DNA of 64,000 bases from Candidatus Doudnabacteria bacterium RIFCSPHIGHO2_01_FULL_46_14 (GCA_001779925.1 MFEK01000016.1:142504-206503); one strand, 5' to 3'. Positions 3,303 through 57,759 are shown, counted from the first letter of the stretch. A program made the numbers and translations. Notes: a model not told the origin generated them from the sequence alone.

Positions 3303-3332
3303 CATCTCTCATAGAGAAAGGAGGTGAGAAGG

Positions 3333-24430: not shown

Positions 24431-25226
24431 ACACAATAGCCGTCCAGCTATTTTTTTGTTTTGGTTTCAAATCCATTGTGTTCCAAATTCCTTTGAACAC
24501 CTCGCGTAGATTGTGGGCCAACACTTGATCGTGAATTTCCACGAGATAGTGCGGACGGGCGTCAGCCACAATCATCACTACATAATCGCCAAGGATCCAG
24601 GTTGTGGCTTGGAAATTGTGGCTTTGGTCCCAGAAGCGGATATCGCGCTGGGCGAATTTTTTCTTTTTGATTTTTTCCGCGGACTCGTTGGAGAGCAATC
24701 GCAGAGAAATCCCCGGCTTGGCGCACTCTTCCCAGTACCAGTCAATCCATTTTTCATAGGCTCCGACAAACGCATGATCCTGAAAGCCCCACCAGATGCC
24801 GTCATACTGCAGCATACTGTCATCCCAAATCGGTGACTGTTTATGTAAATGATTTTCCAGTTCATCCTCAGCCACAAACACGATTTTCGGCACAGAGTAT
24901 TTTACATTTTTGGCTAAAGCCTGAAGTTCTTGGATGGCGTCTGGCAGGGACGCTTTTTTCTTTTGCAAAAGTTTTTCTTGTTTCGTGACAACATGCTGCA
25001 AATCCGCAGGGGGGCGAGCCACTACATACATATTGGTACTGCCGAGGTCCTGCGCCACAACCCCCTTTTCTACCAGCTCATTGATAACGCTATAGCAGGT
25101 GGTGCGGTTGATGCCGGCGATGCGCGCGAGTGCTCCAGGCGTGATTTTGCCGTGCTGAAGAACTGCAAGATAAACCGCGATTTCTTTGTCGCCAAAGCCG
25201 AGGGATTTGAGAGTGTCTTGAATCAT
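24429..25226 (-). CDS. TrmB-family transcriptional regulator (paralog 2)
   Basis: wHTH ITPGALARIAGINRTTCYSVINELVEKGVV. Confidence 0.8.
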   Translation of the reverse strand: MIQDTLKSLGFGDKEIAVYLAVLQHGKITPGALARIAGINRTTCYSVINELVEKGVVAQDLGSTNMYVVARPPADLQHVVTKQEKLLQKKKASLPDAIQELQALAKNVKYSVPKIVFVAEDELENHLHKQSPIWDDSMLQYDGIWWGFQDHAFVGAYEKWIDWYWEECAKPGISLRLLSNESAEKIKKKKFAQRDIRFWDQSHNFQATTWILGDYVVMIVADARPHYLVEIHDQVLAHNLREVFKGIWNTMDLKPKQKNSWTAIV

Positions 25227-33389: not shown

Positions 33390-34139
33390 ATGAAAAATAA
33401 TTTGATATCATGGCTGCAAGCCACCGGATTGGATGAACAAAGGGCTAATATTTATTTAACTCTTTTGGGCCAGGGGGAGGCTACAGCCAAGCAAATTGCA
33501 GAACTTGTAAATGTAGGGAGAACGGCGGTGTATGATAATCTCCGAGTTTTGCAGAATCACGGATATGTAAATATGGTGCGGCAAGGCAGGCGGCAAATTT
33601 ATTTGCCTTTGCATCCCGATGAGCTTTATAGAAAATTTGAAAGTCAAAAACAGCAGCTAAAAGACTTGTTGCCGGATTTTTTGTCACTGTATGCGGAAAA
33701 AGACTCCCGGCCGTTTGTCCAAGCTTTTCAAGGGCATTTTGCGGCCAGAGAGGTTTATGAAGATATCTTGCGAGTGGCCGAAAAGGAATATATTTACGTT
33801 TCTCCTTCTGAATTGACTTTGCAAGTAGTGGATCGGCGCTTCATCGAAGATTGGATAAAGCGCCGGGTCGCCAAAGGCATTCACAGTAGGTCACTGCGGG
33901 TAAAAGCCAAAATAGTTCCGAATCAGGCAATTTTTAATGACGAGGCAAAGTATTTGCGCCAGATCCGTTATTTGCCTAGCTACGTTGATTTACTGGCTTC
34001 TGTTTATGTTTACGGCAATAATATTGGAGTGATTTCTACAAAAAGAGAAGGGAGTGCTTTTATCATCCATTCCCCAGATTTCGCTTTTACCTTGCGCCAG
34101 GTTTTTGATTTTTTGTGGACTATCTCCAGCAAGTCATAA
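33390..34139 (+). CDS. TrmB-family transcriptional regulator (paralog 3), immediately upstream of rpoB
   Basis: wHTH TAKQIAELVNVGRTAVYDNLRVLQNHGYV. Upstream palindrome GTCAAaaataaTTGAC at 33364-33379. Confidence 0.75.
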   Translation: MKNNLISWLQATGLDEQRANIYLTLLGQGEATAKQIAELVNVGRTAVYDNLRVLQNHGYVNMVRQGRRQIYLPLHPDELYRKFESQKQQLKDLLPDFLSLYAEKDSRPFVQAFQGHFAAREVYEDILRVAEKEYIYVSPSELTLQVVDRRFIEDWIKRRVAKGIHSRSLRVKAKIVPNQAIFNDEAKYLRQIRYLPSYVDLLASVYVYGNNIGVISTKREGSAFIIHSPDFAFTLRQVFDFLWTISSKS

Positions 34140-37705: not shown

Positions 37706-40700
37706 ATGTTTACCAAAAGCGCTGAATTTAAAGCGGTACAGGTCAAAATCGCCTCTAGCGAGCAGATTTTAAATTGGTCTTACGGCGAGGTTACCAAGCC
37801 GGAGACCATTAACTACCGTACCCAGCGTCCGGAAAAAGACGGTCTATTTGACGAGAAAATTTTTGGACCGGTACGCGATTGGGAGTGCTACTGTGGTAAA
37901 TATAAACGCATCCGCTACAAAGGCATTATTTGTGACAAATGCGGGGTTGAAGTCACTAGGGCGCAGGTTCGCCGCGAGCGCATGGGACATATCAAACTGG
38001 CCGTGCCGGTGGCGCACATTTGGTTTTTGCGCGGCGTGCCATCCAGGCTCGGTTTGACTTTAAATCTTTCTGTCCAGGAATTGGAAAAAGTTATTTATTT
38101 TGCCTCCTACGTTATTACCGAGGTTCGCGAAGACATCCGTACCGAAACCCTCGATCAGATTGAAAAAGAGTTTAAGATCAAAAAAAAGGAAATCGAAAGC
38201 AAATACGAAAAATTGATTGCCAAAGCTAGAACCGCCAAGCCTGCGGCCGGGCAGAATGCGGATGTTTTTGCCGCACAGATCGACACTGATCTTGCCAAGC
38301 TTCAGGAAAATCTCAAGCACGACATTTCCGCTCTGGAAAAAATCCGCGATTTGGCGCGTTCAGAGCTCAAATCCTTGAAAAAAATGCAGGTTATCTCAGA
38401 GTTGGAATATCGGGATTTGTCTCTGAAATACGGTCCGGTTTTCAAAGCCGGCATCGGCGCGGAAGCGATTTTCAATCTTGTTAAAAGCGTGGATATGGAA
38501 AAGCTCATTATTGAGCTTGAGGCCGAGGTGCTGAATACTGAAGGAGCGGCTTACCGCAAAGCCATAAAAAGGTTGAAACTGATAAAATCTTTGGTCAAAG
38601 GCGGTATGCGCCCCGAGTGGATGATGATTTCCAATTTGCCGGTTATCCCTCCGGATCTGCGGCCCATGGTCCAGCTCGACGGCGGCCGGTTTGCGGCTTC
38701 AGATCTCAATGATCTTTACCGCCGGGTCATAAACCGCAACAACCGTCTCAAGCGTCTTTTGGAAATAAATGCGCCTGAGGTCATCACTAGAAACGAAAAA
38801 CGCATGCTTCAGGAAGCGGTTGACGCGCTTATCGACAACTCGGTGCGGCACGGTAAAGAAGTAACGGCTTCTACTGGCCAGCGCCGCAAACTGCGTTCGC
38901 TTGCGGACATGCTCAAAGGCAAACAAGGCCGGTTCCGCCAAAACCTCTTGGGCAAGCGCGTGGATTATTCCGGGCGCAGTGTTATTGTGGTTGGACCAGA
39001 GCTCAAATTGCATCAGTGCGGCTTGCCGAAGCGCATGGCCTTGGAGCTTTTTAAACCGTTTGTTATTTCCAAACTCATCGCCCGCGAATTTGCGCATAAT
39101 GTACGCTCGGCAAACCGGCTCATTGAACAGGAACGGGCTGAAGTTTACGATATCCTGGAAGAAGTCACTAAGGATCACTATGTCCTCCTAAACCGCGCTC
39201 CTACCCTGCATCGTTTGGGTTTTCAGGCTTTCCAACCAGTGCTCATTGAAGGTAAAGCTATTCAGATCCACCCCATGGTTTGTCAGGCGTTTAATGCGGA
39301 TTTTGACGGCGACCAAATGGCTGTGCATGTGCCGCTGACCAGCCAGGCGCAGTTTGAAGCCAAAGAAATGATGTCCTCCTCCCGCAATTTGTTAAAACCG
39401 GCTTCCGGCGAACCGATCATGACCCCGGATAAAGACGTAGTGCTCGGCTGTTATTATATTACGAGGATGCAGGATGGACTTGTCGGCGAGGGTAAAATTT
39501 TTGCTGACCCGCAGGAAGCGATTCTTGCTGAAAAATCCGGAATTATTTCCATCAAAGCGAAGGTCAAGGTGAGAATGAATGGTAAAATCGTGGAAACATG
39601 CGTGGGCCGGATTTTGTTCAACCAGATTTTACCTGAGGAAATGCAGTTCTTAAACGAAGTCATGGACAAAAAGCGCTTGCGTAATGTTCTGCGCGAATGT
39701 TACCGCCAGTTTGGCACTGACCGGACCGCAGTGCTCATTGATGACATTAAGCAAATGGGGTTTGCCCACCTGACCGTTTCCGGCCTTTCCTGGGGCATGG
39801 ATGACCTCCAAGTCCCAGCCATGAAAAAGGGCCTTCTGGATAAAGCCGATGAAGAAGTGCAGCGTACCTATGACCAATACCGCGAAGGGCTTTTGACTGA
39901 ATCAGAGCGCTACAATCGAGTGGTAGAGATTTGGGCGGAGGTTAGAGACAAGGTTACAGACGAGGTCAGCCGTTCGCTTGATCAAAATGGCTCAGTGTTT
40001 TCCATGGTGTCCTCGGGCGCCAGAGGTTCTCTCTCTCAGGTTTCCCAGATGACAGGAATGAAGGGGCTCGTGGTTAACCCGGCCGGGGATGTTATTGAAC
40101 TGCCGGTCCGAGACAGCTTTAAAGAAGGCCTTTCGATTTTGGAATATTTTATTTCCACTCACGGCTCGCGAAAAGGCATGTCAGACACAGCTCTGCGTAC
40201 TGCGGATGCCGGATATTTGACACGCCGCCTCGTGGACGTTTCACAGGACGTTGTGGTAAACGAAGAAGACTGTGGCACCCGAGAGGGCGTTACCATTACC
40301 CGTAAGGAAACCGAAGAGGTTGGTAAAGGCCTTGGGGAAAGGATTTTCGGACGCGTTTTGGCAGTCGATATGGTAGATGAAAAGACCAAAAAAGCGGTAC
40401 TGAAGCGCGGCCAGGTTATAGATGATACTTTGGTTAAAACCGTAGATTCTGCAAATGTGAGCGAGGTGCTGGTGCGCTCGGTTATGAACTGCACGCTCAA
40501 ACGCGGCGTATGCGCGGCGTGTTACGGCTTTGATCTCGGGTTTAACAAAATGGTCAATCTCGGAGCCGCGGTTGGGATCGTGGCGGCGCAGGCCATTGGT
40601 GAACCAGGCACCCAGTTGACCATGAGAACTTTCCATACTGGTGGCGTAGCCGGGCTAGACATCACCCAAGGTCTGCCGCGCGTCGAGGAACTATTTGAAG

Positions 40701-41599
40701 CGCGCGATCCGAAAGGCCAGGCAGTCATTTCCGAAATAGATGGCATTGTTTACATTAGCCGACCTAACAGCAAAGAGATTATTTTGCGTGTGGATGCTGA
40801 GAATATCAAGAAAGATGAATACCTCCTGCCGACTGGCCAGGCTATCCAGCTGACGGAAGGCGAAAAGGTGAAAAAAGGCGAGCCGATCGCCATAGATGCA
40901 GATGGCAAGACCATGAAAGCCAAAGAATCGGGTATTGTGCGCATTGAAATGACAGAGGATGGGGGTAAAAAGATCGTGGTAGTTAGGGAGAATGAGAATT
41001 TCAACGAATACATTATTCCTTCCGCCATGCACCTTACTGTCAAAGACGGCGATCTGGTAATCCGCGGGCAGCAGCTTACTGAGGGAAACCTCAACCTGCA
41101 TCAGCTTATGCAGCTTCGAGGCACGCTGGAATGCCAAGCATATATAATCCGCGAGGTGCAAAAAATATATTCTTCCCAAGGCCAAAACATTGCTGACAAG
41201 CACGTGGAAATCATTGTCCGGCAAATGTTTTCCAAACTGCGCATTACGGATTCCGGGGATTCGGATTTCCTGGTCGGCGACGTTGTCGATCGCCTGCGCC
41301 TCGATGCGGTAAACGAACAGCTTGTCAGCCGCGGCGTAAAAAAAGCCGCTGCAGAACAGCTACTTATGGGGATTACCAAATCCTCGCTCAATACAGAATC
41401 ATTCCTCGCGGCCGCGTCTTTCCAGGAAACCACTCGCGTGTTAATAGAAGCTGCGGTGAGCGCGAAAACCGATTATCTGCGCGGCCTGAAGGAAAACGTG
41501 ATTATCGGCAAGCTCATCCCGGCCGGCACCGGTTTTTCCAAAGACCGCCTCATCGACCCCGGCGCCCTCGACGAAACTGTGATCAATACTGAAGAATAA
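37706..41599 (+). CDS. rpoC: DNA-directed RNA polymerase subunit beta'
   Basis: Zn-finger CYCGKYKRIRYKGIICDKCGVEV and catalytic NADFDGD. Confidence 0.95.
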   Translation: MFTKSAEFKAVQVKIASSEQILNWSYGEVTKPETINYRTQRPEKDGLFDEKIFGPVRDWECYCGKYKRIRYKGIICDKCGVEVTRAQVRRERMGHIKLAVPVAHIWFLRGVPSRLGLTLNLSVQELEKVIYFASYVITEVREDIRTETLDQIEKEFKIKKKEIESKYEKLIAKARTAKPAAGQNADVFAAQIDTDLAKLQENLKHDISALEKIRDLARSELKSLKKMQVISELEYRDLSLKYGPVFKAGIGAEAIFNLVKSVDMEKLIIELEAEVLNTEGAAYRKAIKRLKLIKSLVKGGMRPEWMMISNLPVIPPDLRPMVQLDGGRFAASDLNDLYRRVINRNNRLKRLLEINAPEVITRNEKRMLQEAVDALIDNSVRHGKEVTASTGQRRKLRSLADMLKGKQGRFRQNLLGKRVDYSGRSVIVVGPELKLHQCGLPKRMALELFKPFVISKLIAREFAHNVRSANRLIEQERAEVYDILEEVTKDHYVLLNRAPTLHRLGFQAFQPVLIEGKAIQIHPMVCQAFNADFDGDQMAVHVPLTSQAQFEAKEMMSSSRNLLKPASGEPIMTPDKDVVLGCYYITRMQDGLVGEGKIFADPQEAILAEKSGIISIKAKVKVRMNGKIVETCVGRILFNQILPEEMQFLNEVMDKKRLRNVLRECYRQFGTDRTAVLIDDIKQMGFAHLTVSGLSWGMDDLQVPAMKKGLLDKADEEVQRTYDQYREGLLTESERYNRVVEIWAEVRDKVTDEVSRSLDQNGSVFSMVSSGARGSLSQVSQMTGMKGLVVNPAGDVIELPVRDSFKEGLSILEYFISTHGSRKGMSDTALRTADAGYLTRRLVDVSQDVVVNEEDCGTREGVTITRKETEEVGKGLGERIFGRVLAVDMVDEKTKKAVLKRGQVIDDTLVKTVDSANVSEVLVRSVMNCTLKRGVCAACYGFDLGFNKMVNLGAAVGIVAAQAIGEPGTQLTMRTFHTGGVAGLDITQGLPRVEELFEARDPKGQAVISEIDGIVYISRPNSKEIILRVDAENIKKDEYLLPTGQAIQLTEGEKVKKGEPIAIDADGKTMKAKESGIVRIEMTEDGGKKIVVVRENENFNEYIIPSAMHLTVKDGDLVIRGQQLTEGNLNLHQLMQLRGTLECQAYIIREVQKIYSSQGQNIADKHVEIIVRQMFSKLRITDSGDSDFLVGDVVDRLRLDAVNEQLVSRGVKKAAAEQLLMGITKSSLNTESFLAAASFQETTRVLIEAAVSAKTDYLRGLKENVIIGKLIPAGTGFSKDRLIDPGALDETVINTEE

Positions 41600-41674: not shown

Positions 41675-42679
41675 ATGAAGAATCAAGAGAAACCAAAAGG
41701 TGAAATCATCATTTATAAGGCTGCGACCGGCCCAGAAATTCAAGTAAAACTTGAGAATGATACTGTTTGGCTGTCCCAAAAGCAAATAGCAGGTCTTTTT
41801 GGCACAGAGCGATCAGTTATTACAAAACACCTTAGAAATATCTTTAAAACCGCAGAATTAAGCCAAAATTCAGTATGTGCATTTTTTGCACATACTGCCG
41901 CGGATGGGAAAACTTATAAAACTCAATATTACAATTTGGACGCTGTTATATCTGTTGGCTATCGGGTCAATTCCAAGCTGGCTACAGAGTTTCGTATTTG
42001 GGCTACCCAACGGTTGCGCGACTATATCATCAAAGGGTTTGTTATAAACGAGAAACGTCTCCCAGAGGCGCATGTCACCAAGCTCAAAGAGCTTGAGACT
42101 GCCCACAAACTCATCCAGCAAGCTTTGGAATCCAAGCGTTCCAAGGGATATGAGCGGGAATTGCTGAACATCATTTCTGATTATGCCAATACCTGGTTTG
42201 TTTTGAATTTGTACGATGAACAGAAGCTGAAGATCGAAAATGTCACTGAGAAAAAGAGCAGAGGGTTGGTCTATGATGAAGTGCTCGGTAATATTAAAAA
42301 ATTCCGCGCTCGTCTACAGGCGCAAAAGCAAGCCACGGATTTGTTCGGGGTGGAGGTCAGCCACAAGCTGTCCTCGATCGTTGGCGGCATTGAGCAGACG
42401 TTCGGCGGCAAATCACTTTATAAGAGCCTGGAAGAGAAAGCCGCGCACCTGCTGTATTTCGTGATCAAAGACCACCCGTTTGTGGACGGCAATAAGCGTA
42501 TTGGCTCTTTGTTGTTTTTGCTGTACCTCATTCAAAACCACATGTTCTATAACCGCCGCGGCGAACGCAAAATCAATGACACGGCACTGGTTGCTTTGGC
42601 ATTGCTTATCGCCGAATCCAAACCCGAGCAAAAAGACATCATGGTAAAGCTTGTGGTAAATTTGATAAATAAGAAATAA
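41675..42679 (+). CDS. RhuM-like / Fic(DOC)-family protein
   Basis: N-terminal RhuM-type region. Canonical Fic motif HPFVDGNKRIG in the C-terminal half. Confidence 0.75.
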   Translation: MKNQEKPKGEIIIYKAATGPEIQVKLENDTVWLSQKQIAGLFGTERSVITKHLRNIFKTAELSQNSVCAFFAHTAADGKTYKTQYYNLDAVISVGYRVNSKLATEFRIWATQRLRDYIIKGFVINEKRLPEAHVTKLKELETAHKLIQQALESKRSKGYERELLNIISDYANTWFVLNLYDEQKLKIENVTEKKSRGLVYDEVLGNIKKFRARLQAQKQATDLFGVEVSHKLSSIVGGIEQTFGGKSLYKSLEEKAAHLLYFVIKDHPFVDGNKRIGSLLFLLYLIQNHMFYNRRGERKINDTALVALALLIAESKPEQKDIMVKLVVNLINKK

Positions 42680-42683
42680 ATTT

Positions 42684-42977
42684 ATGCTCAAATTTATTTT
42701 AGGAATCATAATCGGCGCGGTTATTGTCTGGTTTCTTTTTAAGAAGTCCGCGGCAGGCAAGGCTGTGAACCCAGAGCAGATCGAGGAGAAACAAAAGAAC
42801 CTGGAAAAGATAATGGACATGGCCCATGCCCGCGGCAAGGTTGCCAACGATGAAGTAGAAAAAGCCTTAGGCATTTCCGATCGGACCGCGACCAGGTATC
42901 TGGAGGAGCTCGAAAGCCAAGGCAAGATCCAGCAAGTCGGCCGTACTGGCAAATCCGTCACCTACCGCCCCCGCTAA
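42684..42977 (+). CDS. Small membrane-anchored wHTH protein, partner of the Fic gene
   Basis: N-terminal TM. C-terminal ISDRTATRYLEELESQGKIQQVGRTGKSVTYR wHTH. Starts 5 nt after the Fic stop. Confidence 0.5.
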   Translation: MLKFILGIIIGAVIVWFLFKKSAAGKAVNPEQIEEKQKNLEKIMDMAHARGKVANDEVEKALGISDRTATRYLEELESQGKIQQVGRTGKSVTYRPR

Positions 42978-43053
42978 ACCCGCCAACCGCACTTGGCGGG
43001 TTAAAGGTGGCCCAAAAGCCATCTTTCATTTTGGCCTATTTGCAAAAAAGCTG

Positions 43054-43082
43054 TTGACGGAAACGCTAAAACATGCGATAAT
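43054..43082 (+). promoter_or_regulatory. Sigma70-like promoter TTGACG-N17-GATAAT for the PpnP-like/rSAM operon
   Basis: Hexamers and spacing seen directly. Confidence 0.5.
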
Positions 43083-43162
43083 TGGGTGTCTTTTTCAATC
43101 CTGAAATTTGACGATACCCTAGCCACGGGCAGTGGTAATTTCAGTATGAATTTGGAGGATTC

Positions 43163-43465
43163 ATGGGACAAATTGGAAACGATCGAAAGATTGAGACCAA
43201 GAGCTTTTTTAAGGGCAAACTTCGGAGTGTCGGACCGATCGGTGCTGATGGATTGAAGCGTTATACGGTCGGCATATTTCTGCCGCGCCAATATGAGTTC
43301 ACAGCAGACACACGGGGCGAAACTATCGTCATCGTGGACGGAACCTGCACTATCAATGGTCAGGTGCTGAAAGCCGGCGAGAAGATTTTCATTTCCGGTG
43401 GCGAGAAGGTTGTAATCGAAGCCACGGAAACCTGCGCATACTTCTGCTGGTTCGGCCAGCGATAA
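43163..43465 (+). CDS. PpnP-like protein (DUF1255 cupin-fold pyrimidine/purine nucleoside phosphorylase family)
   Basis: Aligns along its length with E. coli YaiE/PpnP (FFKGKLRSVG...GVF..GEYxF.T...E...I.G.......AG..F........IEA.E...Y.C.F). RBS GGAGG. Confidence 0.65.
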   Translation: MGQIGNDRKIETKSFFKGKLRSVGPIGADGLKRYTVGIFLPRQYEFTADTRGETIVIVDGTCTINGQVLKAGEKIFISGGEKVVIEATETCAYFCWFGQR

Positions 43466-43497
43466 CAGTCCGGATATCAAACCGGAAAGGAGAAATC

Positions 43498-44967
43498 ATG
43501 AAAGTTGTTTTTGTTGAACATCCTTGTCCGGTTCTGCTCCTCGGCAACGAGCCTTGGAGTCCGGTCCGGACAAATACCTGGCCGCAAAGCCAAATGACGC
43601 TTGCGGCAGCGATCGCGAACGAACATGATGTTTCGATTCTCGATTTGCGTAGCCTGGAGTCACCAGCCGATTGGCGTCGACAAATCGGTCCAGAGTATTT
43701 GGAACCGATTCGCTACAGTGAATCCATTCTCCTTACCCGGCACCTTATAGGTGACTGCAAACGGATTTCGGATCATCCAGCCGACGCATTTGTTTTTACG
43801 GCGAATTTCACATCGGAAGCGAATGCGGTAGTAGAAGCAATTCGAACTGCGAAACTTAGCTGGCCTGAAGCGCTCATCCTCGTCGGAGGAAGCGACGCGA
43901 GTCCGGAAGAGAGGCATGCGTTTTATTTTAATGCAGGAGCTGATTACATCGGCGTCGGAGACGGGGATACAGCGTTGCCGGTATTTCTCGATCAAATCAA
44001 GAAAGGCCATCGTCCGAACGAGAGAATCATCAGGGGAGGCTCAGCTGGCGTTAACCTGTTAAACTCTAATTTCTCGTTAGTGCAAAAAGCACGATATGTG
44101 GAAAGCGGCGGCGGGCCAATTCATCCGGGCATTTTTCGAAATGGCGGATTTGCAGTTTACACAGAAATTTCCCGAGGTTGTTCTCGTGAATGCTGGTTCT
44201 GTTCGGCAAGAATGACTGATCTCTGGTCTCCGCCCATTGACGAGGTCCTGAAACATTTGGATCATATCATCGACAGCGGCTGTCGATTGCTTATGTTCAG
44301 TGATGACAATCTGCTACTGGCTCGCAAGACCGAAGAACTCGTAACGATTTTCAGGCATATCCGAGAAAGACGGATCGCCTGGGAATTTCCAAACGGTTTG
44401 GAAGTCGGACTACTGATTGATTCCAAGAGAGGAGGTTTCAGCAAAGAGTTGTTTGAAACGCTCTTCTGGAATTCTGAAAGTTTGTCATTCTTCGGTGCCC
44501 ACCGGTTGCTCGTACCAATTGAGGATGCGCTTTTGCACAGGAGCGCGCTCAGAAAGCTCAAAAACGTTCAAGTGCAGATACGCGGGTTGCTTGAGCGGTT
44601 GCTCGATACGGGGATTCCGTTTTTGAACCTCGCCATTATGATTGGCGGTGTTCAAGAATCGCGAGATGACCGCGAGCGCTTGGAAGATAGTCTGGAGTTG
44701 ATTAACAGATGGACCCATAGCTCAAAAACCCGAGTCAATTTTTCGATCTTCTGCACAAGCCCGCTCCCTGGGACAGGACTCGGAAGAGCCGCGCTGAAAT
44801 CAAAGAAGCGTCTCTCTCATAACATTGAGGAAGCCCCTGAACTCTGGACAGTCTTCGCTTCGATTCTCAACGGGGACAATTTCACTGCCGAGCAGACAAC
44901 ACAGTATCGGCGAAAATTGCTCCGACGTTTCCACATGTCACAAGATGAAGGCAAGGTCAGGTCATAA
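43498..44967 (+). CDS. B12-binding domain / radical SAM domain protein (class-B-like rSAM)
   Basis: N-terminal MKVVFVEHP... Rossmann-like B12-binding region. CxxxCxxC at SRGCSRECWFCS. RBS AAAGGAG. Confidence 0.75.
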   Translation: MKVVFVEHPCPVLLLGNEPWSPVRTNTWPQSQMTLAAAIANEHDVSILDLRSLESPADWRRQIGPEYLEPIRYSESILLTRHLIGDCKRISDHPADAFVFTANFTSEANAVVEAIRTAKLSWPEALILVGGSDASPEERHAFYFNAGADYIGVGDGDTALPVFLDQIKKGHRPNERIIRGGSAGVNLLNSNFSLVQKARYVESGGGPIHPGIFRNGGFAVYTEISRGCSRECWFCSARMTDLWSPPIDEVLKHLDHIIDSGCRLLMFSDDNLLLARKTEELVTIFRHIRERRIAWEFPNGLEVGLLIDSKRGGFSKELFETLFWNSESLSFFGAHRLLVPIEDALLHRSALRKLKNVQVQIRGLLERLLDTGIPFLNLAIMIGGVQESRDDRERLEDSLELINRWTHSSKTRVNFSIFCTSPLPGTGLGRAALKSKKRLSHNIEEAPELWTVFASILNGDNFTAEQTTQYRRKLLRRFHMSQDEGKVRS

Positions 44968-44981
44968 CCTGACAGCCATGC

Positions 44982-45012
44982 ATCAAAAGCTCGACGATTC
45001 GTTCGCCGAGCT
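44982..45012 (+). terminator. Rho-independent terminator after the rSAM gene
   Basis: AAGCTCGacgattcgttcgcCGAGCTT followed by TTTTTT. Confidence 0.6.
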
Positions 45013-45041
45013 TTTTTTATTCCAGCTTTTTTGAGTTTGGC

Positions 45042-45332
45042 CTATTTCACGAACAGTCCGGGGAGAGGGAGAAAAATTGGGAAAGTGATAAGGATAAACA
45101 CTGCGACCGCAATGGCCAAAGATTTACGATCGTTATGGCTCAATGCGAGTATTGCCGTTACTGCGCACATGAGCCAGCCGGCTAGTTGCGCGGCAATGAC
45201 TAGGATCCACAAAATGACCCCTGGCCCTCCATCTATAACCGGAGTATACCCTCCAAGCAAGAGATTGCCTGCGATATGGATAATGAATACAACGACTCCC
45301 GCTACGACAAGCCTTTTCTGTGTTTTGTTCAT
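45042..45332 (-). CDS. Small membrane protein (96 aa)
   Basis: Three TM helices. Ends 8 nt before the valS stop. Confidence 0.4.
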   Translation of the reverse strand: MNKTQKRLVVAGVVVFIIHIAGNLLLGGYTPVIDGGPGVILWILVIAAQLAGWLMCAVTAILALSHNDRKSLAIAVAVFILITFPIFLPLPGLFVK

Positions 45333-45339
45333 AGAAAAT

Positions 45340-48015
45340 TTATTTTAATTGTTTGACTTTGGCTTTGAGGGTTTTGACTTTGGTTTCGGCGGCTGACAGG
45401 TCTGCCTGCATTTTTTCTACTATTTCTTTCGGGGCTTTTTTCAGAAAGCCTTTATTTTTTACCTGAGTAGAGATTTTTTTGACATAGCTTTCTGCCTCTT
45501 TGAGCTGTTTTTCTGTGAGGGCGGCTTCTTTTTTGGAATCAAAATTGGGGATGACAAGGTAAATGCGGACGCCTTCCCAAAGAAAATACGGCATTTTGTG
45601 GGCATGGTCCATCACGGCAAAATTGAGCTTGGTTCTGGTGAGCTTTTCGATAACTGGGGTGTGATCTTTTATCCATTCGAGATCTTTGGGAATTTCTAAA
45701 TAGCTTGAATAAATTGGGGTGGACCCCAGACGGTATTCTGCCCGCAGGTTGCGCAGGCCAGTCACGAGTTCGCGCATAGCTTCAAAGAGCGGGCGGGCCG
45801 CGAATTTTTCTATTTTCTCCGGAACATGGGGGTAATCATCCACCATTAGCAGGCTTTTGGCCATCTGCGACCAGATGTGCTCAGTGACGAAAGGAATGAA
45901 AGGATGCCACAGTTTTAGAATATTAACCAGGAGGACATCGAGAACTTCTTTTTTATTGCCTTCGATTTTGGCAATTTCCAAATACCAATCCGCCAGATCA
46001 TCCCAGGTAAACCGCTGGAGTTCTTCCGCGGCTTGGCCATATTGGGAGTTTTCAAAATGGCGGTTGACCGCGGCTACTGTTTCATCCAGGCGATCAAGAA
46101 TCCAATGATCGGCAAGCGTTGATAACCCTCCCCCACCTCCCCTTACCTTAAGGGGAGGAGTCGAGAGAATGAATCTCGAGATATTCCAGAGCTTATTGAC
46201 GAAATTGCGGCCAGCCTCCACTTTGATTTCCGAAAATTTCATGTCATTTCCCGGCGTGTTGCCGAGCACCAGTGACAACCGCAGCGCGTCAGTGCCGTAT
46301 TTGGCCTGGATATCCAGCGGATCAATGCGATTGCCGCTCGATTTACTCATTTTTTTGCCCTCAATGTCGCGCACCAGCCCGTGCAGGTAGACGGTTTTGA
46401 AAGGAATATCGTTTAATAGAAACCCGGTCATCAGAACCATGCGCGCTACCCAGAAAAACAAAATATCATAGGCGGTTTCCAATACCACGGTAGGGTGATA
46501 GGTTTTTAAATCCGAGGTTTCCTGAGGCCAACCCAGCGTGGAAAAGGTCCATAGCCCGGAAGAAAACCAGGTATCAAGCGTGTCCTCGTCCTGTTTGAGG
46601 TTTGCGCCCTGGCATTTTGTGCAGGAAGCTGGGGGCTCCACGGCCACGATGGTTTCGGTGCAGTCCGGGCAGTACCAGACCGGAATGCGGTGGCCGTACC
46701 AGATTTGCCGCGAGATGGTCCAATCCCGCAGATTTTTCATCCACTCAAAATAGATTTTCTCGAAATGCTTGGGCACGATTTTGATAGCGCCCGATTTCAC
46801 CGCCGCAGTCATCATTTCCTTGAGGGTCGTCTTTTCCGGCAGTCTCAGATTTTTACTAAATTCTTTATTCTCTATTTTAAATTCTGCATTCACATTCACA
46901 AACCACTGCTTTGAAACAACCGGTTCCACCACAGTGCCGCAGCGGTAGCAGGTGCCGACGCGATGCTCAATCTCTTCGGTTTTTTCGATGAACTCCTTTT
47001 CATGGAGTTCCTGCACGATGCGGTTAAGCGCATCCTCTTTCGTAAGTCCCGCATAGTCGTCAAACCCATGATCCGCGGCTTCCTGCGCATCGATTTTGCC
47101 GTCTGCCGTGTAGAGGTGAATCATTTCCAGGCCGTGGCGTTTGGCAATTTCAAAATCATTATGGTCATGGCCGGGTGTGACTTTCATAGCTCCAGTGCCG
47201 AACGCTTTATCAATATGATCATCCGCGATAACCGGCACCTCGCGGTTCAAAAGCGGGAGCATGATGATCTTGCCGACATATTTTTTGTAGCGCGAATCGC
47301 CTGGGTTAACGGCCACGCCAGTGTCGCCAAGCATAGTTTCCGGACGGTTTGTCGCTACAACCAGGTAGTCTTCACTGTCTTTTACGGGATAACGCAGATA
47401 AAACATGTGACCTTTGGCTTGTTTGAAGCTGACCTCATCATCGGCCAGAGTCGAGCCGCAACGCGGGCACCAATTAACCATGCGTTCGCCGCGGTAGATG
47501 AGTCCGGCGTCATGCATTTTTTTGAAAGCCGTACGCACTGCCAGTGACAGCTCCGGGGACAACGTAAATTTTTCGCGCGTCCAATCGCAGGACGAGCCCA
47601 TTTTGCGGATCTGGTTTTGGATGCGCCCTTGGGTATGACTGACAAATTCTTCGATGCGCCTCAGAAGCTGCTCTCGGCCCAGGTCAGTCCGGGTTTTTTT
47701 CTCTTCTTCGAGAATTTTGCGTTCCACAACATTTTGGGTGGCAATGGCTGCGTGGTCAGTACCCGGTAGCCACAGAGCCTTGCGGCCCCGCATGCGCGCA
47801 TGGCGGGTCATAATATCCTGCAGAGTGATGAACAGGGCGCTTCCCAGGTGCAGTTCGGCTGTAACATTGGGCGGCGGCATGGCAATGGAGAACGGTTCGG
47901 CATTCCAAAACCGGTCCCCGGCTTTTTCTAGATTATCAGGATTGAAAAAGCCCGATTTTTCCCATTTCTCGTAGATTTTATCCTCAAATTCTTGTGGATT
48001 ATAGGCTTTGCTCAT
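45340..48015 (-). CDS. valS: Valyl-tRNA synthetase, with one in-frame GC-rich repeat insertion
   Basis: HIGH-like PPNVTAELHLGSALF, KMSKS, editing domain, C-terminal coiled coil. Insert at 46124-46166. Confidence 0.9.
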   Translation of the reverse strand: MSKAYNPQEFEDKIYEKWEKSGFFNPDNLEKAGDRFWNAEPFSIAMPPPNVTAELHLGSALFITLQDIMTRHARMRGRKALWLPGTDHAAIATQNVVERKILEEEKKTRTDLGREQLLRRIEEFVSHTQGRIQNQIRKMGSSCDWTREKFTLSPELSLAVRTAFKKMHDAGLIYRGERMVNWCPRCGSTLADDEVSFKQAKGHMFYLRYPVKDSEDYLVVATNRPETMLGDTGVAVNPGDSRYKKYVGKIIMLPLLNREVPVIADDHIDKAFGTGAMKVTPGHDHNDFEIAKRHGLEMIHLYTADGKIDAQEAADHGFDDYAGLTKEDALNRIVQELHEKEFIEKTEEIEHRVGTCYRCGTVVEPVVSKQWFVNVNAEFKIENKEFSKNLRLPEKTTLKEMMTAAVKSGAIKIVPKHFEKIYFEWMKNLRDWTISRQIWYGHRIPVWYCPDCTETIVAVEPPASCTKCQGANLKQDEDTLDTWFSSGLWTFSTLGWPQETSDLKTYHPTVVLETAYDILFFWVARMVLMTGFLLNDIPFKTVYLHGLVRDIEGKKMSKSSGNRIDPLDIQAKYGTDALRLSLVLGNTPGNDMKFSEIKVEAGRNFVNKLWNISRFILSTPPLKVRGGGGGLSTLADHWILDRLDETVAAVNRHFENSQYGQAAEELQRFTWDDLADWYLEIAKIEGNKKEVLDVLLVNILKLWHPFIPFVTEHIWSQMAKSLLMVDDYPHVPEKIEKFAARPLFEAMRELVTGLRNLRAEYRLGSTPIYSSYLEIPKDLEWIKDHTPVIEKLTRTKLNFAVMDHAHKMPYFLWEGVRIYLVIPNFDSKKEAALTEKQLKEAESYVKKISTQVKNKGFLKKAPKEIVEKMQADLSAAETKVKTLKAKVKQLK
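46124..46166. repeat. GC-rich palindromic repeat in frame within valS (encodes PLKVRGGGGGLS on the minus strand)
   Basis: CCTCCCCTTACCTTAAGGGGAGG. Confidence 0.7.
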
Positions 48016-48986
48016 TTGGTTATTTTAACATAATTTCCATGCTTTCGCCTGGCAATGAATTGCTGTAAATTTTTCGCAAATTCTTCGTCAATTTCCGAGA
48101 GTTTGTTTAGTTGTCCGGCAATCAAAACAGGCGGATCCACGTAGCGGACCTTGGCATTGAGGTGCAGGTCGTGCGGACTGCCTGGTTCGACCTCTGTTAA
48201 ATGAAGTTTTGTTAAGTCCGCTACTTCCTGCCTCGTTTCCTTGCTCAATTTATCCATAAGCTCTTTATCAGTTGTAAAAAAATCATCAAACGTAATCTCG
48301 CCTCGGTCGTGAGCTTTTTTTAGGATCTGGGAAAAGAGATGATAAATTGTATTTCCAATATAACTGCCGCCCCATCGCTCTTTGTCCCCTCTGATAAACA
48401 GATCAGCGAACTGCCTCGCGAAAGTTTTAGTCTGAAAAACGATTTGCCCCTGGAACACGGTCAGGTCGGCAAGCATTTCCTTGAGCAGAGAGAGCGGCAC
48501 ATCAAAACTTGTCAGAAATGTCTTTAAAGCATAATCGACGCGATCCGCGCATAAAGCAGGGAGAGGCTGTTCCAGAATGGAAAAATTATGATGATCTAAA
48601 ACATGGTCAGTCTCAAAACCGTAGCGCCTCAGAATTTCCGGGATATTTGATTTGTTCACGATTCGCAAGAGATGCTTTTCGTGAAAATCCTGAGTCTCGG
48701 CCGCGCCAAAAGCAAAATCCATGGCGTGTGAGAATGCGGTATGAGAAATATCATGCACCAACCCGGCAATTTGTTCCTCGATTGAGCCGCCAAGCCTTTT
48801 GATAAGGCTCATCACTCCGACGCAGTGGTTAAACCTTGAAAATCTACCCCAGGAAATCTCCACTATCCCCGCTACCGCGTTTTGATCCACGCCTTTGAGC
48901 CTCTGCATGGCCGAGGTTTCAATAAGCTCCAGAATCACCGGCTCAGTAATTTCAATCCCGCCGTAAATTGTGTCATGTATTATCAT
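48012..48986 (-). CDS. HD-domain phosphohydrolase
   Basis: AGLVHDISHTAFSH HD motif. Confidence 0.7.
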   Translation of the reverse strand: MIIHDTIYGGIEITEPVILELIETSAMQRLKGVDQNAVAGIVEISWGRFSRFNHCVGVMSLIKRLGGSIEEQIAGLVHDISHTAFSHAMDFAFGAAETQDFHEKHLLRIVNKSNIPEILRRYGFETDHVLDHHNFSILEQPLPALCADRVDYALKTFLTSFDVPLSLLKEMLADLTVFQGQIVFQTKTFARQFADLFIRGDKERWGGSYIGNTIYHLFSQILKKAHDRGEITFDDFFTTDKELMDKLSKETRQEVADLTKLHLTEVEPGSPHDLHLNAKVRYVDPPVLIAGQLNKLSEIDEEFAKNLQQFIARRKHGNYVKITK

Positions 48987-57687: not shown

Positions 57688-57759
57688 CAGTCCCACGGGG
57701 AATCGAACCCCGATTCACAGCTTGAAAAGCTGTTGTCCTAACCGTTAGACGATGGGACC
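57688..57759 (-). tRNA. tRNA-Glu (anticodon TTC). No encoded CCA
   Basis: Reverse complement GGTCCCATCGTCTAACGGTTAGGACAACAGCTTTTCAAGCTGTGAATCGGGGTTCGATTCCCCGTGGGACTG folds as a cloverleaf. Anticodon loop TTTTCAA. T-loop GGTTCGATTCC. Confidence 0.85.

What the first reader, a model, noticed from the sequence alone, without database searches (positions are those of the whole stretch)
43054..45012. PpnP-like cupin plus B12-binding radical SAM enzyme operon in the rpoC-valS gap
A DUF1255/PpnP-like protein (nucleoside phosphorylase cupin family) is followed 32 nt later by a 489-aa protein with an N-terminal B12-binding-like Rossmann domain and a CxxxCxxC radical SAM site. They share a TTGACG-N17-GATAAT promoter and end at a strong terminator. 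Class-B rSAM enzymes do difficult methylations or rearrangements (RiPPs, nucleosides, lipids). Pairing with a nucleoside-phosphorylase-fold protein hints at a nucleoside or base modification or salvage step. No cobalamin biosynthesis or obvious precursor peptide is visible. A weak 12-bp repeat TTTGGCCTATTT lies at both ends of the block (43027-43038, 45038-45049).
Basis: partly seen in the sequence, partly recalled or inferred. Interest (0 to 1): 0.65.

Follow-up and report, generated by a model that had tools for sequence, protein, structure and literature searches.

The report
Cupin plus B12-type radical SAM operon
A tiny symbiotic-type bacterium (Candidatus Doudnabacteria) carries a real two-gene operon pairing a small nucleoside-phosphorylase-like protein with an uncharacterised vitamin-B12-type radical enzyme; related genomes keep the pair together, so the two probably work together, but on what is unknown.

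Summary
Window 43054-45020 holds a promoter, an 80-nt leader, a 100-aa PpnP/DUF1255 cupin, a 32-nt spacer with a ribosome-binding site, a 489-aa radical SAM protein and an intrinsic terminator. The 12-nt flanking repeat is exact, 2-3 nt from the stated coordinates.

The radical SAM protein (OGE77918.1, annotated hypothetical) has an invariant CxxxCxxC and an N-terminal Rossmann domain. A confident AlphaFold model (pLDDT 90.8) is closest to the cobalamin-dependent C-methyltransferases CysS and TokK. It reaches no named subfamily. Its own family is small: 76 cluster representatives among 1.84 billion proteins.

Both refutation tests fail. A PpnP-like cupin lies next to the gene in 8 of 11 examined loci with at least 50% identity: seven upstream, one downstream, two with 4-nt overlaps. 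The pairing holds even where the cupin has diverged far more than its partner. More distant relatives (DPANN archaea, actinobacterial and other biosynthetic clusters) lack the cupin.

Function is inferred only. Most likely the pair forms a cobalamin/radical-SAM C-methylation step coupled to glycosidic-bond phosphorolysis on a nucleoside-type metabolite. Rivals are by-product (5'-deoxyadenosine/SAH) clearance and a non-nucleoside substrate. This is a new variant of a known kind, of moderate interest.

The parts
42977..43002 (.). Perfect 10-bp-stem palindrome AACCCGCCAA-N6-TTGGCGGGTT. It is the terminator-like hairpin after the small HTH gene. The same palindrome lies on the other side of the operon in relative L064.
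   Evidence: (I11)
43030..43041 (+). Left copy of the exact 12-nt direct repeat TTTGGCCTATTT (16 of 18 nt identical if extended to 43024-43041).
   Evidence: D4
43043..43053 (+). Left arm of an 11-nt perfect inverted repeat, CAAAAAAGCTG. DNA homology to relative L058 starts at 43044.
   Evidence: (I8)
43054..43082 (+). Sigma-70-type promoter TTGACG-17-GATAAT with an extended -10 TG. It is conserved in L058 and L059.
43083..43162 (+). 80-nt 5' leader with two conserved hairpins. A third predicted hairpin carries the Shine-Dalgarno sequence (GGAGG, 43154-43158) in its loop and pairs the start codon. The leader is 80% identical to L059, although the cupin ORF that follows has no DNA similarity. 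It matches no Rfam family.
43163..43465 (+). 100-aa single-domain cupin of the PpnP/DUF1255 family (OGE77917.1).
43487..43492 (+). Ribosome-binding site AAGGAG, 5 nt before the radical SAM start codon.
   Evidence: read from the sequence
43498..44967 (+). 489-aa radical SAM protein (OGE77918.1, UniRef A0A1F5NJX7). It has an N-terminal 5-strand Rossmann (cobalamin-binding-type) domain at about residues 1-180, with a conserved beta-hairpin insertion at 56-92. The radical SAM core carries C228/C232/C235, followed by a short C-terminal region.
44985..45020 (+). Intrinsic terminator: a 13-nt-arm hairpin plus a U run. It could work in both directions, since A-rich and T-rich runs flank the stem.
   Evidence: (I5)
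45023..45033 (+). Right arm of the 11-nt inverted repeat, CAGCTTTTTTG. DNA homology to L058 ends at 45031.
   Evidence: (I8)
45036..45047 (+). Right copy of the 12-nt direct repeat. It overlaps the stop codon of the convergent 96-aa membrane-protein gene (45042-45332, minus strand).

Best explanation
Shown: the block is a self-contained, vertically maintained two-gene operon of a Candidatus Doudnabacteria (CPR/Patescibacteria) genome. Gene 1 encodes a divergent member of the PpnP (DUF1255) cupin family, whose characterised members phosphorolyse nucleosides. Gene 2 encodes a compact member of a small, unnamed family of cobalamin-binding-domain radical SAM enzymes whose nearest solved relatives are the C-methyltransferases CysS and TokK. 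The gene pair is conserved in related CPR genomes.

Inferred: the two proteins act in one pathway, probably as a complex. The radical SAM enzyme reductively cleaves SAM at its [4Fe-4S] cluster, abstracts a hydrogen atom from an unactivated carbon and transfers a methyl group from methylcobalamin. Less likely, it catalyses a rearrangement as OxsB does. The cupin makes or breaks the N-glycosidic bond by phosphorolysis, so that the substrate or product is a nucleoside or nucleobase-type metabolite that these auxotrophic cells salvage or tailor.

The confidence given is for the nucleoside-coupled mechanism. The anatomy and the family assignments are about 0.9.
For: - Anatomy and expression signals.
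- Cupin family. Pfam Ppnp is above gathering over the full profile. A profile of 8 partner cupins hits solved PpnP structures end to end (7eym E = 1.6e-10), with matches at the columns invariant in the 8 partner cupins (S22, G37, Y44, F46, E53, G60, Y93, C95). The model's best structural matches are PpnP crystal structures (TM about 0.6, rmsd 1.5-2.2 A).
- Radical SAM protein. CxxxCxxC is invariant. The model has pLDDT 90.8 and pTM 0.91. The best Foldseek PDB hits are CysS and TokK, TMq 0.54-0.60 over more than 510 columns. The profile hits CysS and TokK from the Rossmann domain into the core. 21 of 27 relatives carry a precomputed PF02310 hit.
- Cobalamin site. An invariant N103-F104-T105 follows model strand 97-101. 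This is the loop after Rossmann strand 3, from which OxsB Asn186 and TsrM Arg69 reach under the corrin (PMC13331322).
- Linkage. A cupin lies next to the radical SAM gene in 8 of 11 loci of at least 50% identity: upstream in 7, downstream in 1, with a 4-nt overlap in L060 and L062. It is the most widely recurring neighbour family among the CPR-clade loci in an all-against-all neighbour clustering.
- Partner divergence or exchange. Adjacency is kept even though cupin and radical SAM identities are incongruent: window to L059, 79% against 37%; window to L063, 54% against 51%.
- Nucleotide and B12 context. One relative (L004) sits beside a class II, B12-dependent ribonucleotide reductase and a PduO-type cobalamin adenosyltransferase.
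Against: - Nothing shows the substrate.
- The cupin scores 25.5 bits against a cut-off of 143 for the NCBIfam PpnP equivalog, so phosphorylase activity cannot be transferred with confidence.
- The window protein's own B12-binding Pfam score is below gathering. MiaB and MtaB, which bind no cobalamin, are also good structural matches.
- Three CPR loci lack a nearby cupin (Jacksonbacteria L001, L061, L004). All relatives below 50% identity also lack it. Their neighbours point to amino-acid-derived or other secondary metabolites rather than nucleosides: MbtH, a CmlA-like protein and a glycosyltransferase; PhyH and a sulfotransferase; NRPS in Micromonospora.
- No B12 uptake or synthesis gene was found in the 64-kb window.
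- OxsB, the one nucleotide-acting cobalamin radical SAM enzyme, is not among the PDB sequence hits.
Confidence: 0.35

Rival explanations
1. By-product clearance. The radical SAM enzyme acts on an unrelated substrate. The PpnP-like cupin is a dedicated phosphorylase that removes its inhibitory nucleoside by-products, 5'-deoxyadenosine and S-adenosylhomocysteine. This would replace the Pfs/MtnN or MtnP that a minimal CPR genome may lack.
For: The cupin partner is seen only in CPR loci. It is absent from relatives in large genomes, such as Micromonospora and the loci with biosynthetic-cluster or ECF-sigma/TonB-type neighbours, which would have general nucleosidases. PpnP enzymes are described as broad-specificity nucleoside phosphorylases (PDB names; established knowledge). 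Class B methylases release both SAH and 5'-deoxyadenosine (established knowledge; PMC13331322).
Against: A general housekeeping nucleosidase need not be translationally coupled to one radical SAM gene, as the 4-nt overlaps suggest. Nor need it stay adjacent while cupin and radical SAM identities become incongruent. Other radical SAM genes in the same loci (L063, L061) have no such partner. Whether these genomes lack Pfs or MtnP could not be checked.
Confidence: 0.2
2. Non-nucleoside small-molecule (for example amino-acid-derived or lipid) C-methylation. The cupin serves as an accessory subunit or a different kind of enzyme (substrate-binding, isomerase-like), not as a nucleoside phosphorylase.
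For: Relatives at 43-45% identity sit in secondary-metabolite-like contexts: MbtH, a CmlA-like hydroxylase, an aminotransferase and a glycosyltransferase; PhyH and a sulfotransferase. The weak NCBIfam hits are to lipid and phosphonate methylases (HpnR, the ladderane-type lipid enzyme, PhpK). Some family members carry a predicted membrane anchor, an N-terminal signal-like segment or a C-terminal TM segment. The cupin is only a distant PpnP relative. Small cupins are functionally very diverse; EutQ and others follow closely.
Against: The cupin keeps the residues conserved across solved PpnP proteins, and PpnP structures are its best matches. The neighbourhoods of distant relatives need not predict the CPR substrate.
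Confidence: 0.25
3. A defence or antiviral-nucleoside module. The pair makes a modified nucleoside or nucleotide that blocks phage replication, in the way that viperins or the oxetanocin enzymes OxsB/OxsA make chain terminators.
For: The gene immediately upstream in the window is a strong match to the PADLOC candidate defence family PDC-S23 (E = 1.8e-120). The Jacksonbacteria relative lies near a restriction-modification pair and a transposase. L061 lies beside a reverse transcriptase. The operon is bracketed by repeats. The cupin evolves much faster than its partner.
Against: Neither protein matches any PADLOC model. No close relative was found in viral contigs. Most loci sit among housekeeping genes: rpoC, valS, TsaD, RuvB, EF-P and S18. 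The PDC-S23 gene is absent from L059, where the operon directly follows rpoC, so it is an independent insertion. The operon's GC content equals that of its flanks.
Confidence: 0.07
4. The cupin is the protein substrate of the radical SAM enzyme, modified post-translationally in the way Mmp10 methylates methyl-coenzyme M reductase.
For: The small partner is tightly and sometimes translationally coupled. No other candidate substrate gene lies in the operon.
Against: The cupin keeps a full, conserved enzyme-family fold and shows no leader/core organisation. Several family members have no cupin nearby. No auxiliary-cluster (SPASM or twitch) cysteines occur: only C228, C232 and C235 are invariant and C419 nearly so.
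Confidence: 0.05
5. No functional link. The adjacency is inherited synteny between two unrelated genes.
For: The loci with a cupin all come from one radical SAM clade, and some share neighbours (rpoC in L059, valS/TsaD in L062).
Against: The order is inverted in L035. Flanking genes differ between loci. Overlapping stop and start codons occur in two loci. The radical SAM proteins in these loci have diverged to 52% identity, and the cupin identities do not track them.
Confidence: 0.05

Closest known systems
TokK and CysS (class 1 cobalamin-dependent radical SAM C-methyltransferases; PDB 7kdx, 9n1b-d)
   Same: Same domain order: an N-terminal Rossmann cobalamin-type domain, then a radical SAM barrel with CxxxCxxC. 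They are the best Foldseek matches (E about 1e-10, TMq 0.54-0.60) and the best PDB profile matches (E = 1e-7 and 6e-7).
   Different: Only 12-14% identity. The window protein is about 135-190 residues shorter and lacks the large C-terminal domain. It has a conserved beta-hairpin insertion at residues 56-92 and family-specific invariant motifs: NFT 103-105, ESGGG 202-206, WEF 295-297 and PELW 447-450. The substrates of TokK and CysS are carrier-linked antibiotic intermediates, and neither has a cupin partner.
OxsB/OxsA (oxetanocin A biosynthesis)
   Same: The only characterised cobalamin-dependent radical SAM enzyme that acts on a nucleotide, and it works with a small nucleotide-processing partner. 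An Asn in the loop after Rossmann strand 3 sits under the corrin (PMC13331322); the window family has an invariant Asn103 in that loop.
   Different: OxsB is not among the PDB sequence hits at E up to 1. It has an extra N-terminal domain. Its partner is an HD phosphohydrolase, not a cupin. It catalyses ring contraction, not methylation. The resemblance is one of logic, not of membership.
PpnP / YaiE (pyrimidine/purine nucleoside phosphorylase, PF06865; PDB 7eyj-7eyp, 2oyz)
   Same: Same length and single cupin domain. Pfam is above gathering, the profile hit is end to end with matches at the cupins' invariant columns, and these are the best structural matches.
   Different: 20-28% identity. 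It reaches 25.5 bits against a 143-bit cut-off for the NCBIfam equivalog. It lacks a six-residue insertion that the solved PpnP proteins have after the 'ING' strand. It is encoded in an operon with a radical SAM enzyme, an arrangement for which three literature searches found no report.
TIGR04013 (MJ_1487 family of B12-binding/radical SAM proteins), HpnR and other NCBIfam B12 radical SAM families
   Same: These are the best NCBIfam matches, and they span both the Rossmann domain and the start of the radical SAM core (residues 88-262).
   Different: All are far below their cut-offs: 39 against 251 bits for TIGR04013 and 28.6 against 650 for HpnR. The window protein is not a member of any of them.
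MiaB/MtaB/RimO methylthiotransferases
   Same: A flavodoxin-like N-terminal domain followed by a radical SAM core. Foldseek TMq is 0.50-0.51, and there are weak profile hits to the cluster region.
   Different: The three N-terminal cysteines of the second cluster are absent, and so is a TRAM domain. The only invariant cysteines are C228, C232 and C235.

Membership tests
Radical SAM superfamily (PF04055) | CxxxCxxC motif that binds the [4Fe-4S] cluster | tested here: met
   C228-x3-C232-x2-C235 is invariant in 26 aligned family members.
Radical SAM superfamily (PF04055) | Profile match above Pfam gathering, and a partial TIM-barrel core | tested here: met
   33.0 bits against 29.5. The model has pLDDT 90.8 with alternating strands and helices from residue 218 to 419, and radical SAM enzymes are its structural matches.
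Class B / class 1 cobalamin-dependent radical SAM enzymes | N-terminal five-stranded Rossmann cobalamin-binding domain before the radical SAM domain (PMC13331322) | tested here: met
   Model strands lie at 2-7, 44-49, 97-101, 126-130 and 150-153, with helices between them. CysS and TokK are the best matches over more than 510 columns. The profile aligns residues 88-283 to CysS 58-250. 21 of 27 relatives carry a PF02310 hit. Caveat: this protein's own PF02310 score, 27.9, is below the gathering score of 32.1.
Class B / class 1 cobalamin-dependent radical SAM enzymes | Cobalamin is actually bound and used, giving SAH plus 5'-deoxyadenosine per turnover | not testable with these tools
   This needs purified protein. 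The only indirect support is the invariant Asn103 in the loop after strand 3 and one relative that lies next to a PduO-type adenosyltransferase and a class II ribonucleotide reductase.
Named B12 radical SAM subfamilies (TIGR04013, HpnR, ladderane-type, PhpK, RiPP C-methyltransferase, etc.) | Score at or above the curated NCBIfam cut-off | tested here: not met
   The best is 39.1 bits against a cut-off of 251. All 14 hits are far below their cut-offs.
PpnP / DUF1255 (PF06865) | Single cupin domain of about 95 aa matching the family profile end to end | tested here: met
   35.3 bits against 25, covering profile positions 3-92 of 92. 6 of 8 partner cupins match at E < 0.01. The profile of the 8 hits PpnP structures at E = 1.6e-10. 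The fold matches come from a model that is confident only for residues 35-97.
PpnP / DUF1255 (PF06865) | Orthology with E. coli PpnP (NCBIfam equivalog NF007875) | tested here: not met
   25.5 bits against a cut-off of 143.
PpnP / DUF1255 (PF06865) | Nucleoside phosphorylase activity | not testable with these tools
   This needs an enzyme assay.
OxsB-like nucleotide-acting cobalamin radical SAM enzymes | Specific sequence relationship to OxsB, and an HD-domain partner | tested here: not met
   OxsB is absent from the PDB profile hits at E up to 1. The partner here is a cupin. The HD-domain gene at 48012-48986 is on the other strand, in the valS gene string.
MiaB-type methylthiotransferases | Three conserved cysteines in the N-terminal domain for a second cluster | tested here: not met
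   No cysteine column is conserved before residue 228.
RiPP maturase radical SAM enzymes | SPASM or twitch auxiliary-cluster cysteines, and an adjacent short precursor gene | tested here: not met
   No extra conserved cysteine motif occurs; only C419 is nearly invariant. No short conserved ORF recurs in the loci other than the cupin.
Known anti-phage defence systems (PADLOC-DB 2.0) | Match to a defence-system protein model | tested here: not met
   Neither protein has a hit at E up to 0.1. Only the unrelated upstream gene matches, to PDC-S23.
Transposable or cassette-type mobile element | Terminal inverted repeats, flanking direct repeats, a recombinase, and an empty site in a relative | tested here: inconclusive
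   A 12-nt direct repeat and an 11-nt inverted repeat bracket the block, and homology to L058 is confined to 43044-45031. Against mobility: there is no recombinase, GC equals that of the flanks, the position next to rpoC or the small membrane gene is shared with L059 and L064, and no empty site was found.

The most novel reading that the evidence does not exclude
The PpnP-type cupin and the compact cobalamin radical SAM enzyme form a dedicated two-enzyme route, specific to CPR bacteria. It would make or salvage a C-methylated (or ring-rearranged) nucleoside or nucleobase. That would be only the second nucleoside-directed cobalamin radical SAM chemistry after OxsB. It would also give the widespread PpnP/DUF1255 family a physiological role beyond the one assigned from in vitro assays. 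The product could be a salvage intermediate that bypasses a missing pathway in these auxotrophs, or an antiviral analogue.
Probability: 0.2. Interest if true: 0.75.

Novelty: new variant of a known kind. Interest (0 to 1): 0.5.

Why it matters
Cobalamin-dependent radical SAM enzymes perform some of the hardest methylations and rearrangements in biology, and few families have a known substrate. This family is small, compact (about 490 aa) and models with high confidence. It is found in CPR bacteria and DPANN archaea, alongside a minority of members in biosynthetic clusters.

Its conserved pairing with a PpnP-family cupin gives a concrete and cheap experiment: co-express two small genes and screen nucleosides. 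It also offers a possible physiological context for PpnP/DUF1255, whose cellular role is poorly understood.

If the substrate is a nucleoside, this would show how organisms without de novo nucleotide synthesis tailor what they scavenge. If the by-product-clearance reading is right, it would show how minimal genomes cope with 5'-deoxyadenosine toxicity.

Tried and rejected
- **Rosetta-stone fusion.** The homologues of about 600 aa (P0005, P0007, P0008, P0010) have a 105-aa N-terminal extension. It begins with a signal-like hydrophobic segment. It is not a cupin: no hit with the cupin HMM and no Pfam hit. The longer representatives P0030-P0039 carry TM or coiled-type tails, not cupins.
- **Riboswitch in the conserved leader.** No Rfam match at E up to 10 or at gathering threshold in 11 loci. 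The fold z-score is only -1.4. Three sequences give one compensatory pair. Relatives L060, L062, L032 and L063 have unrelated leaders.
- **Known defence system.** No PADLOC hit for either protein.
- **Phage-borne relatives.** Only two weak partial hits in viral contigs. The cupin alignment was too divergent to scan with.
- **Empty-site test for mobility.** Homologues of the 96-aa membrane protein were found only on 623-nt and 650-nt contigs, and both still carry the radical SAM 3' end. No empty site was seen.
- **Recent horizontal transfer.** GC content is 0.49-0.51 in the operon and in its flanks.
- **B12 genes in the window.** None among about 45 ORFs. The rest of the genome could not be read.
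- **Literature.** Searches for PpnP or DUF1255 together with radical SAM or cupin, and for cobalamin radical SAM enzymes in CPR, found nothing on this pairing.
Full report
**1. What is in the sequence**

Window 43054-45020 is a compact transcription unit on the + strand. It contains, in order:

- **Promoter.** TTGACG-17-GATAAT with a TG before the -10, at 43054-43082. It matches 10 of 12 consensus positions.
- **Leader.** About 80 nt, 43083-43162.
- **First ORF.** 43163-43465, 100 aa, preceded by GGAGG.
- **Spacer.** 32 nt, holding AAGGAG.
- **Second ORF.** 43498-44967, 489 aa.
- **Terminator.** A hairpin with 13-nt arms followed by a run of T, 44985-45020. The 81-nt stretch folds at -21.2 kcal/mol, z = -2.67.

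The consensus scan missed the terminator because the stem has one internal mismatch. The same hairpin is present in relatives L058, L064 and L065. The promoter hexamers are conserved in position in L058 and L059. On its own the promoter scan is not above chance: 3 sites found against 2.6 expected. The conservation is what supports it.

The window comes from a Candidatus Doudnabacteria MAG of the RIFCSPHIGHO2_01_FULL series. The two proteins are OGE77917.1 and OGE77918.1, annotated as hypothetical; UniRef names the second a 'B12-binding domain-containing protein'.

**2. The cupin**

- It matches Pfam PF06865 (Ppnp) at 35.3 bits, gathering 25, across the whole profile.
- A profile built from it and seven partner cupins from related loci hits the solved PpnP proteins end to end (7eym, E = 1.6e-10).
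- The matches fall at the columns that are invariant in the eight partner cupins: S22, G37, Y44, F46, E53, G60, Y93 and C95.
- A single-sequence model is confident only for residues 35-97. Even so, its best structural matches are the four PpnP crystal structures and other DUF1255 proteins (TM about 0.6, rmsd 1.5-2.2 A).
- It is not an orthologue of E. coli PpnP by NCBI's criterion: 25.5 bits against a cut-off of 143.

So 'PpnP-like' is correct at the family and fold level. Enzymatic activity is not established.

**3. The radical SAM protein**

- Radical_SAM is above gathering (33.0 against 29.5). B12-binding is just below it (27.9 against 32.1).
- The best NCBIfam hits are all B12-binding/radical SAM families, and all are far under their cut-offs. 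The best is TIGR04013, at 39 against 251 bits.
- An alignment of 26 relatives shows C228, C232 and C235 invariant, with no other conserved cysteine motif. That excludes a methylthiotransferase-type or SPASM-type second cluster.
- The alignment also shows family-specific invariant motifs: NFT 103-105, ESGGG 202-206, WEF 295-297 and PELW 447-450.
- AlphaFold2 with this alignment gives pLDDT 90.8 and pTM 0.91. The model has a five-stranded Rossmann domain, a beta-hairpin insertion at 56-92, a radical SAM barrel and a short C-terminal region.
- The best Foldseek PDB matches are the cobalamin-dependent methylases CysS and TokK (E about 1e-10, TMq 0.54-0.60 over more than 510 columns). MtaB and MiaB follow.
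- The sequence profile also finds CysS and TokK first, aligned from the Rossmann domain into the core.
- A recent review defines class 1 cobalamin radical SAM enzymes by exactly this architecture. It notes that a residue from the loop after Rossmann strand 3 sits under the corrin: Asn186 in OxsB and Arg69 in TsrM (PMC13331322). The invariant Asn103 of this family lies in that loop. This is an inference, not a test.

**4. Size and spread of the family**

- The word-indexed search of 5.8 billion clusters found 27 relatives.
- The exhaustive HMM search of 1.84 billion representatives found 76 at E <= 1e-30, 569 at E <= 1e-10 and 8,259 at E <= 1e-3. The last number is essentially the wider B12 radical SAM class.
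- Members at 50% identity or more come from CPR bacteria (Doudnabacteria, Jacksonbacteria, unclassified 'bacterium' MAGs).
- Members at 33-47% include DPANN archaea (Woesearchaeota, Micrarchaeota) and bacteria with larger genomes.
- Relatives at 27-28% sit in Micromonospora NRPS clusters.

**5. Does the gene pair recur?**

Yes. I used tblastn and then an HMM of the cupins against all ORFs of 63 fetched loci. A PpnP-like cupin lies directly next to the radical SAM gene in the following loci:

| Locus | Position of the cupin | Distance to the radical SAM gene |
|---|---|---|
| Window | upstream | 32-nt gap |
| L058 | upstream | 33-nt gap |
| L059 | upstream | 38-nt gap |
| L032 | upstream | 35-nt gap |
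| L060 | upstream | 4-nt overlap |
| L062 | upstream | 4-nt overlap |
| L063 | upstream | not measured |
| L035 | downstream | not measured |

- Three other CPR-clade loci have no cupin within the sequence available on each side (about 3-6 kb): Jacksonbacteria L001 and its duplicates, L061, and L004.
- None of the relatives below 50% identity has one.
- In an all-against-all clustering of neighbouring ORFs, the cupin is the most widely recurring neighbour family among the CPR-clade loci (8 loci). One larger cluster exists, an NRPS-like protein in 11 loci, but it is confined to the distant Micromonospora-type relatives.
- Pairwise identities are incongruent. Between the window and L059 the radical SAM proteins are 79% identical but the cupins 37%. 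Between the window and L063 the figures are 54% and 51%.
- At the DNA level the window and L059 match in the leader (80% over 72 nt) and from 35 nt before the cupin stop codon onward. They do not match across the cupin ORF.
- So the cupin was either exchanged or evolved very fast while the pairing was kept. That argues for a specific functional partnership rather than passive synteny.

**6. Context and the flanking repeats**

*Neighbouring genes*

- In the window the gap between rpoC (37706-41599) and valS (45340-48015, minus strand) holds four units besides each other:
  - a RhuM/Fic-DOC gene (41675-42679), a strong match to the PADLOC candidate defence family PDC-S23, E = 1.8e-120;
  - a small HTH gene (42684-42977);
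  - the operon;
  - a convergent 96-aa membrane-protein gene.
- In L059 the operon follows rpoC directly, without the Fic and HTH genes.
- In L064 and L065 the radical SAM 3' end converges on the same small membrane gene.
- In L062 the operon adjoins valS and TsaD from the other side.
- The operon is therefore a resident of this chromosomal neighbourhood in the lineage. Its GC content (0.49-0.51) equals that of its flanks.

*Repeats at the ends of the block*

- The 12-nt repeat TTTGGCCTATTT is exact and unique to the two ends.
- Just inside it lie perfect 11-nt inverted repeats (I8).
- DNA similarity to L058, which has different flanking genes, runs from 43044 to 45031 only.
- In L059 the operon is bracketed by two copies of a 28-nt palindrome, and L058 has that palindrome upstream.
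- In L064 the window's own upstream palindrome (42977-43002) and spacer lie downstream of the operon. Joining the window's left flank to its right flank reproduces the L064 junction.

*Reading*

The simplest reading is that a repeated palindrome-plus-spacer element flanks the operon, and that the window's right-hand copy has decayed to 12-18 nt. Insertion with a target duplication is not excluded. No recombinase and no empty site were found.

**7. How it most likely works**

*Shown*

- The operon exists, with its expression signals.
- Both proteins belong to the families named above.
- The pairing is conserved.

*Inferred*

- The radical SAM enzyme uses its [4Fe-4S] cluster and SAM to make a 5'-deoxyadenosyl radical, and uses methylcobalamin to methylate an unactivated carbon. 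This is the dominant chemistry of its nearest relatives.
- The cupin handles an N-glycosidic bond by phosphorolysis, which places the substrate among nucleosides or nucleobases.
- Weak contextual support comes from one relative encoded beside a B12-dependent class II ribonucleotide reductase and a PduO-type adenosyltransferase.

I rate this mechanism at 0.35.

*Rivals*

| Rival | Confidence | Main point |
|---|---|---|
| The cupin clears 5'-deoxyadenosine and SAH for an enzyme that acts on something else | 0.20 | Fits the restriction of the cupin to minimal genomes, but not the tight coupling |
| A non-nucleoside substrate, with the cupin as an accessory protein or a different enzyme | 0.25 | Fits the biosynthetic-cluster contexts of relatives at 43-45% identity and the membrane anchors of some members |
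| An antiviral-nucleoside defence module | 0.07 | No PADLOC or viral support |
| The cupin is the protein substrate | 0.05 | |
| No functional link | 0.05 | |

**8. Comparison with what is known, and novelty**

- By fold and profile the enzyme is a class 1 cobalamin-type radical SAM protein closest to CysS and TokK. It shares 12-14% identity with them, is 135-190 residues shorter, has its own motifs, and belongs to no curated subfamily.
- OxsB/OxsA is the nearest analogy in logic: a cobalamin radical SAM enzyme plus a nucleotide-processing partner. It is not a detectable sequence relative.
- Seven literature searches found no report of a PpnP/DUF1255 and radical SAM pairing, or of this family.
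- I therefore class it as a new variant of a known kind: an uncharacterised subfamily with a new, conserved partner.
- It is a good and cheap experimental target, but not something a specialist would find very surprising. Interest 0.5.
- The most novel reading not excluded is a nucleoside-directed cobalamin radical SAM pathway specific to CPR bacteria: probability 0.2, interest 0.75 if true.

Noticed in passing
window 41675-42977: The gene just upstream (334 aa, RhuM N-terminal region plus a Fic/DOC domain) matches the PADLOC candidate defence family PDC-S23 at E = 1.8e-120. A 97-aa protein with a TM segment and a winged HTH follows it, 4 nt downstream. Both genes are absent from relative L059, where the operon directly follows rpoC. 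They therefore look like a separate insertion between rpoC and the operon.
   Followed up: partly
window 42977-43053 and 45023-45047; L059 247-274 and 2341-2368; L058 about 1075-1105; L064 about 425-450: Repeats bracket the operon: an exact 12-nt direct repeat with an 11-nt perfect inverted repeat just inside it. Homology to L058 is confined to 43044-45031. In L059 a 28-nt palindrome lies on both sides of the operon. In L064 the window's upstream palindrome plus spacer lies downstream instead. This is either a repeated palindromic (REP-like or terminator) element or the trace of an insertion.
   Followed up: partly
window 43083-43162; L058 1151-1229; L059 309-389: An 80-nt 5' leader is conserved: 80% nucleotide identity to L059, although the adjacent cupin ORF has no DNA similarity. 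It has two conserved hairpins and a third that pairs the start codon. It matches no Rfam family, the fold z-score is only -1.4, and there are too few sequences to test covariation. Other relatives have unrelated leaders.
   Followed up: partly
cupin genes of the window, L058, L059, L032, L035, L060, L062, L063: Cupin and radical SAM identities are incongruent. Window to L059: 79% for the radical SAM proteins, 37% for the cupins. Window to L063: 54% and 51%. L059 and L032 carry a longer cupin type (122 aa) with two insertions. This suggests partner exchange or very fast cupin evolution.
   Followed up: partly
P0005, P0007, P0008, P0010 (L001 6001-6310; L061 3282-3615): Jacksonbacteria-type homologues carry a conserved N-terminal extension of about 105 aa. 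It starts with a signal-peptide-like hydrophobic segment and matches no Pfam family (conserved motifs P[ND]W..Q.F..CL and ENWW.QETP). P0013 and P0030 instead have C-terminal extensions with a TM segment. Membrane anchoring would be unusual for this enzyme class.
   Followed up: partly
L004 5001-11069 (and L005): One CPR relative of the radical SAM gene is followed, on the same strand, by a class II (B12-dependent) ribonucleotide reductase and a PduO-type cob(I)alamin adenosyltransferase. RuvB lies upstream.
   Followed up: no
L063 3434-4798 (minus strand): A second, unrelated B12-binding/radical SAM gene (454 aa, both Pfam domains above gathering) converges on the cupin and radical SAM pair in this CPR MAG. 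A TrmB-family regulator lies next to it.
   Followed up: no
L006 6568-8516; L042 1659-2843: In two unrelated bacterial loci the family member (45% and 33% identity) lies next to a sulfotransferase. In L006 there is also a PhyH dioxygenase. This hints at a sulfated small-molecule product in those organisms.
   Followed up: no
L011, L043, L054, L055 (upstream, opposite strand): In four loci, at least one of them archaeal (L011, Micrarchaeota), with radical SAM relatives at 27-37% identity, a tandem-HTH Lrp/AsnC-type regulator of about 325 aa is divergently transcribed from the radical SAM gene.
   Followed up: no
window 48012-48986 (minus strand): An HD-domain protein (324 aa) lies directly downstream of valS in the same gene string, followed by an EamA transporter and TsaD. 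The partner of OxsB is an HD phosphohydrolase, but nothing links this gene to the operon.
   Followed up: no
window 3324-3701; 1550-2371, 24429-25226, 33390-34139; 57688-57759: The window also holds another small cupin (Cupin_2, 125 aa), three TrmB-family regulators and one tRNA gene. The rest is typical CPR housekeeping: RuvA/B, UvrB, PolA, Mur ligase, TsaB/D/E, a type IV pilus ATPase and PBP1.
   Followed up: no
protein database entry for window 43498-44967: The 90%-identity cluster that holds this protein is represented by a 68-aa fragment (P0123). As a result the full-length protein did not appear among its own search hits. This is a database artefact, not a property of the gene.
   Followed up: yes
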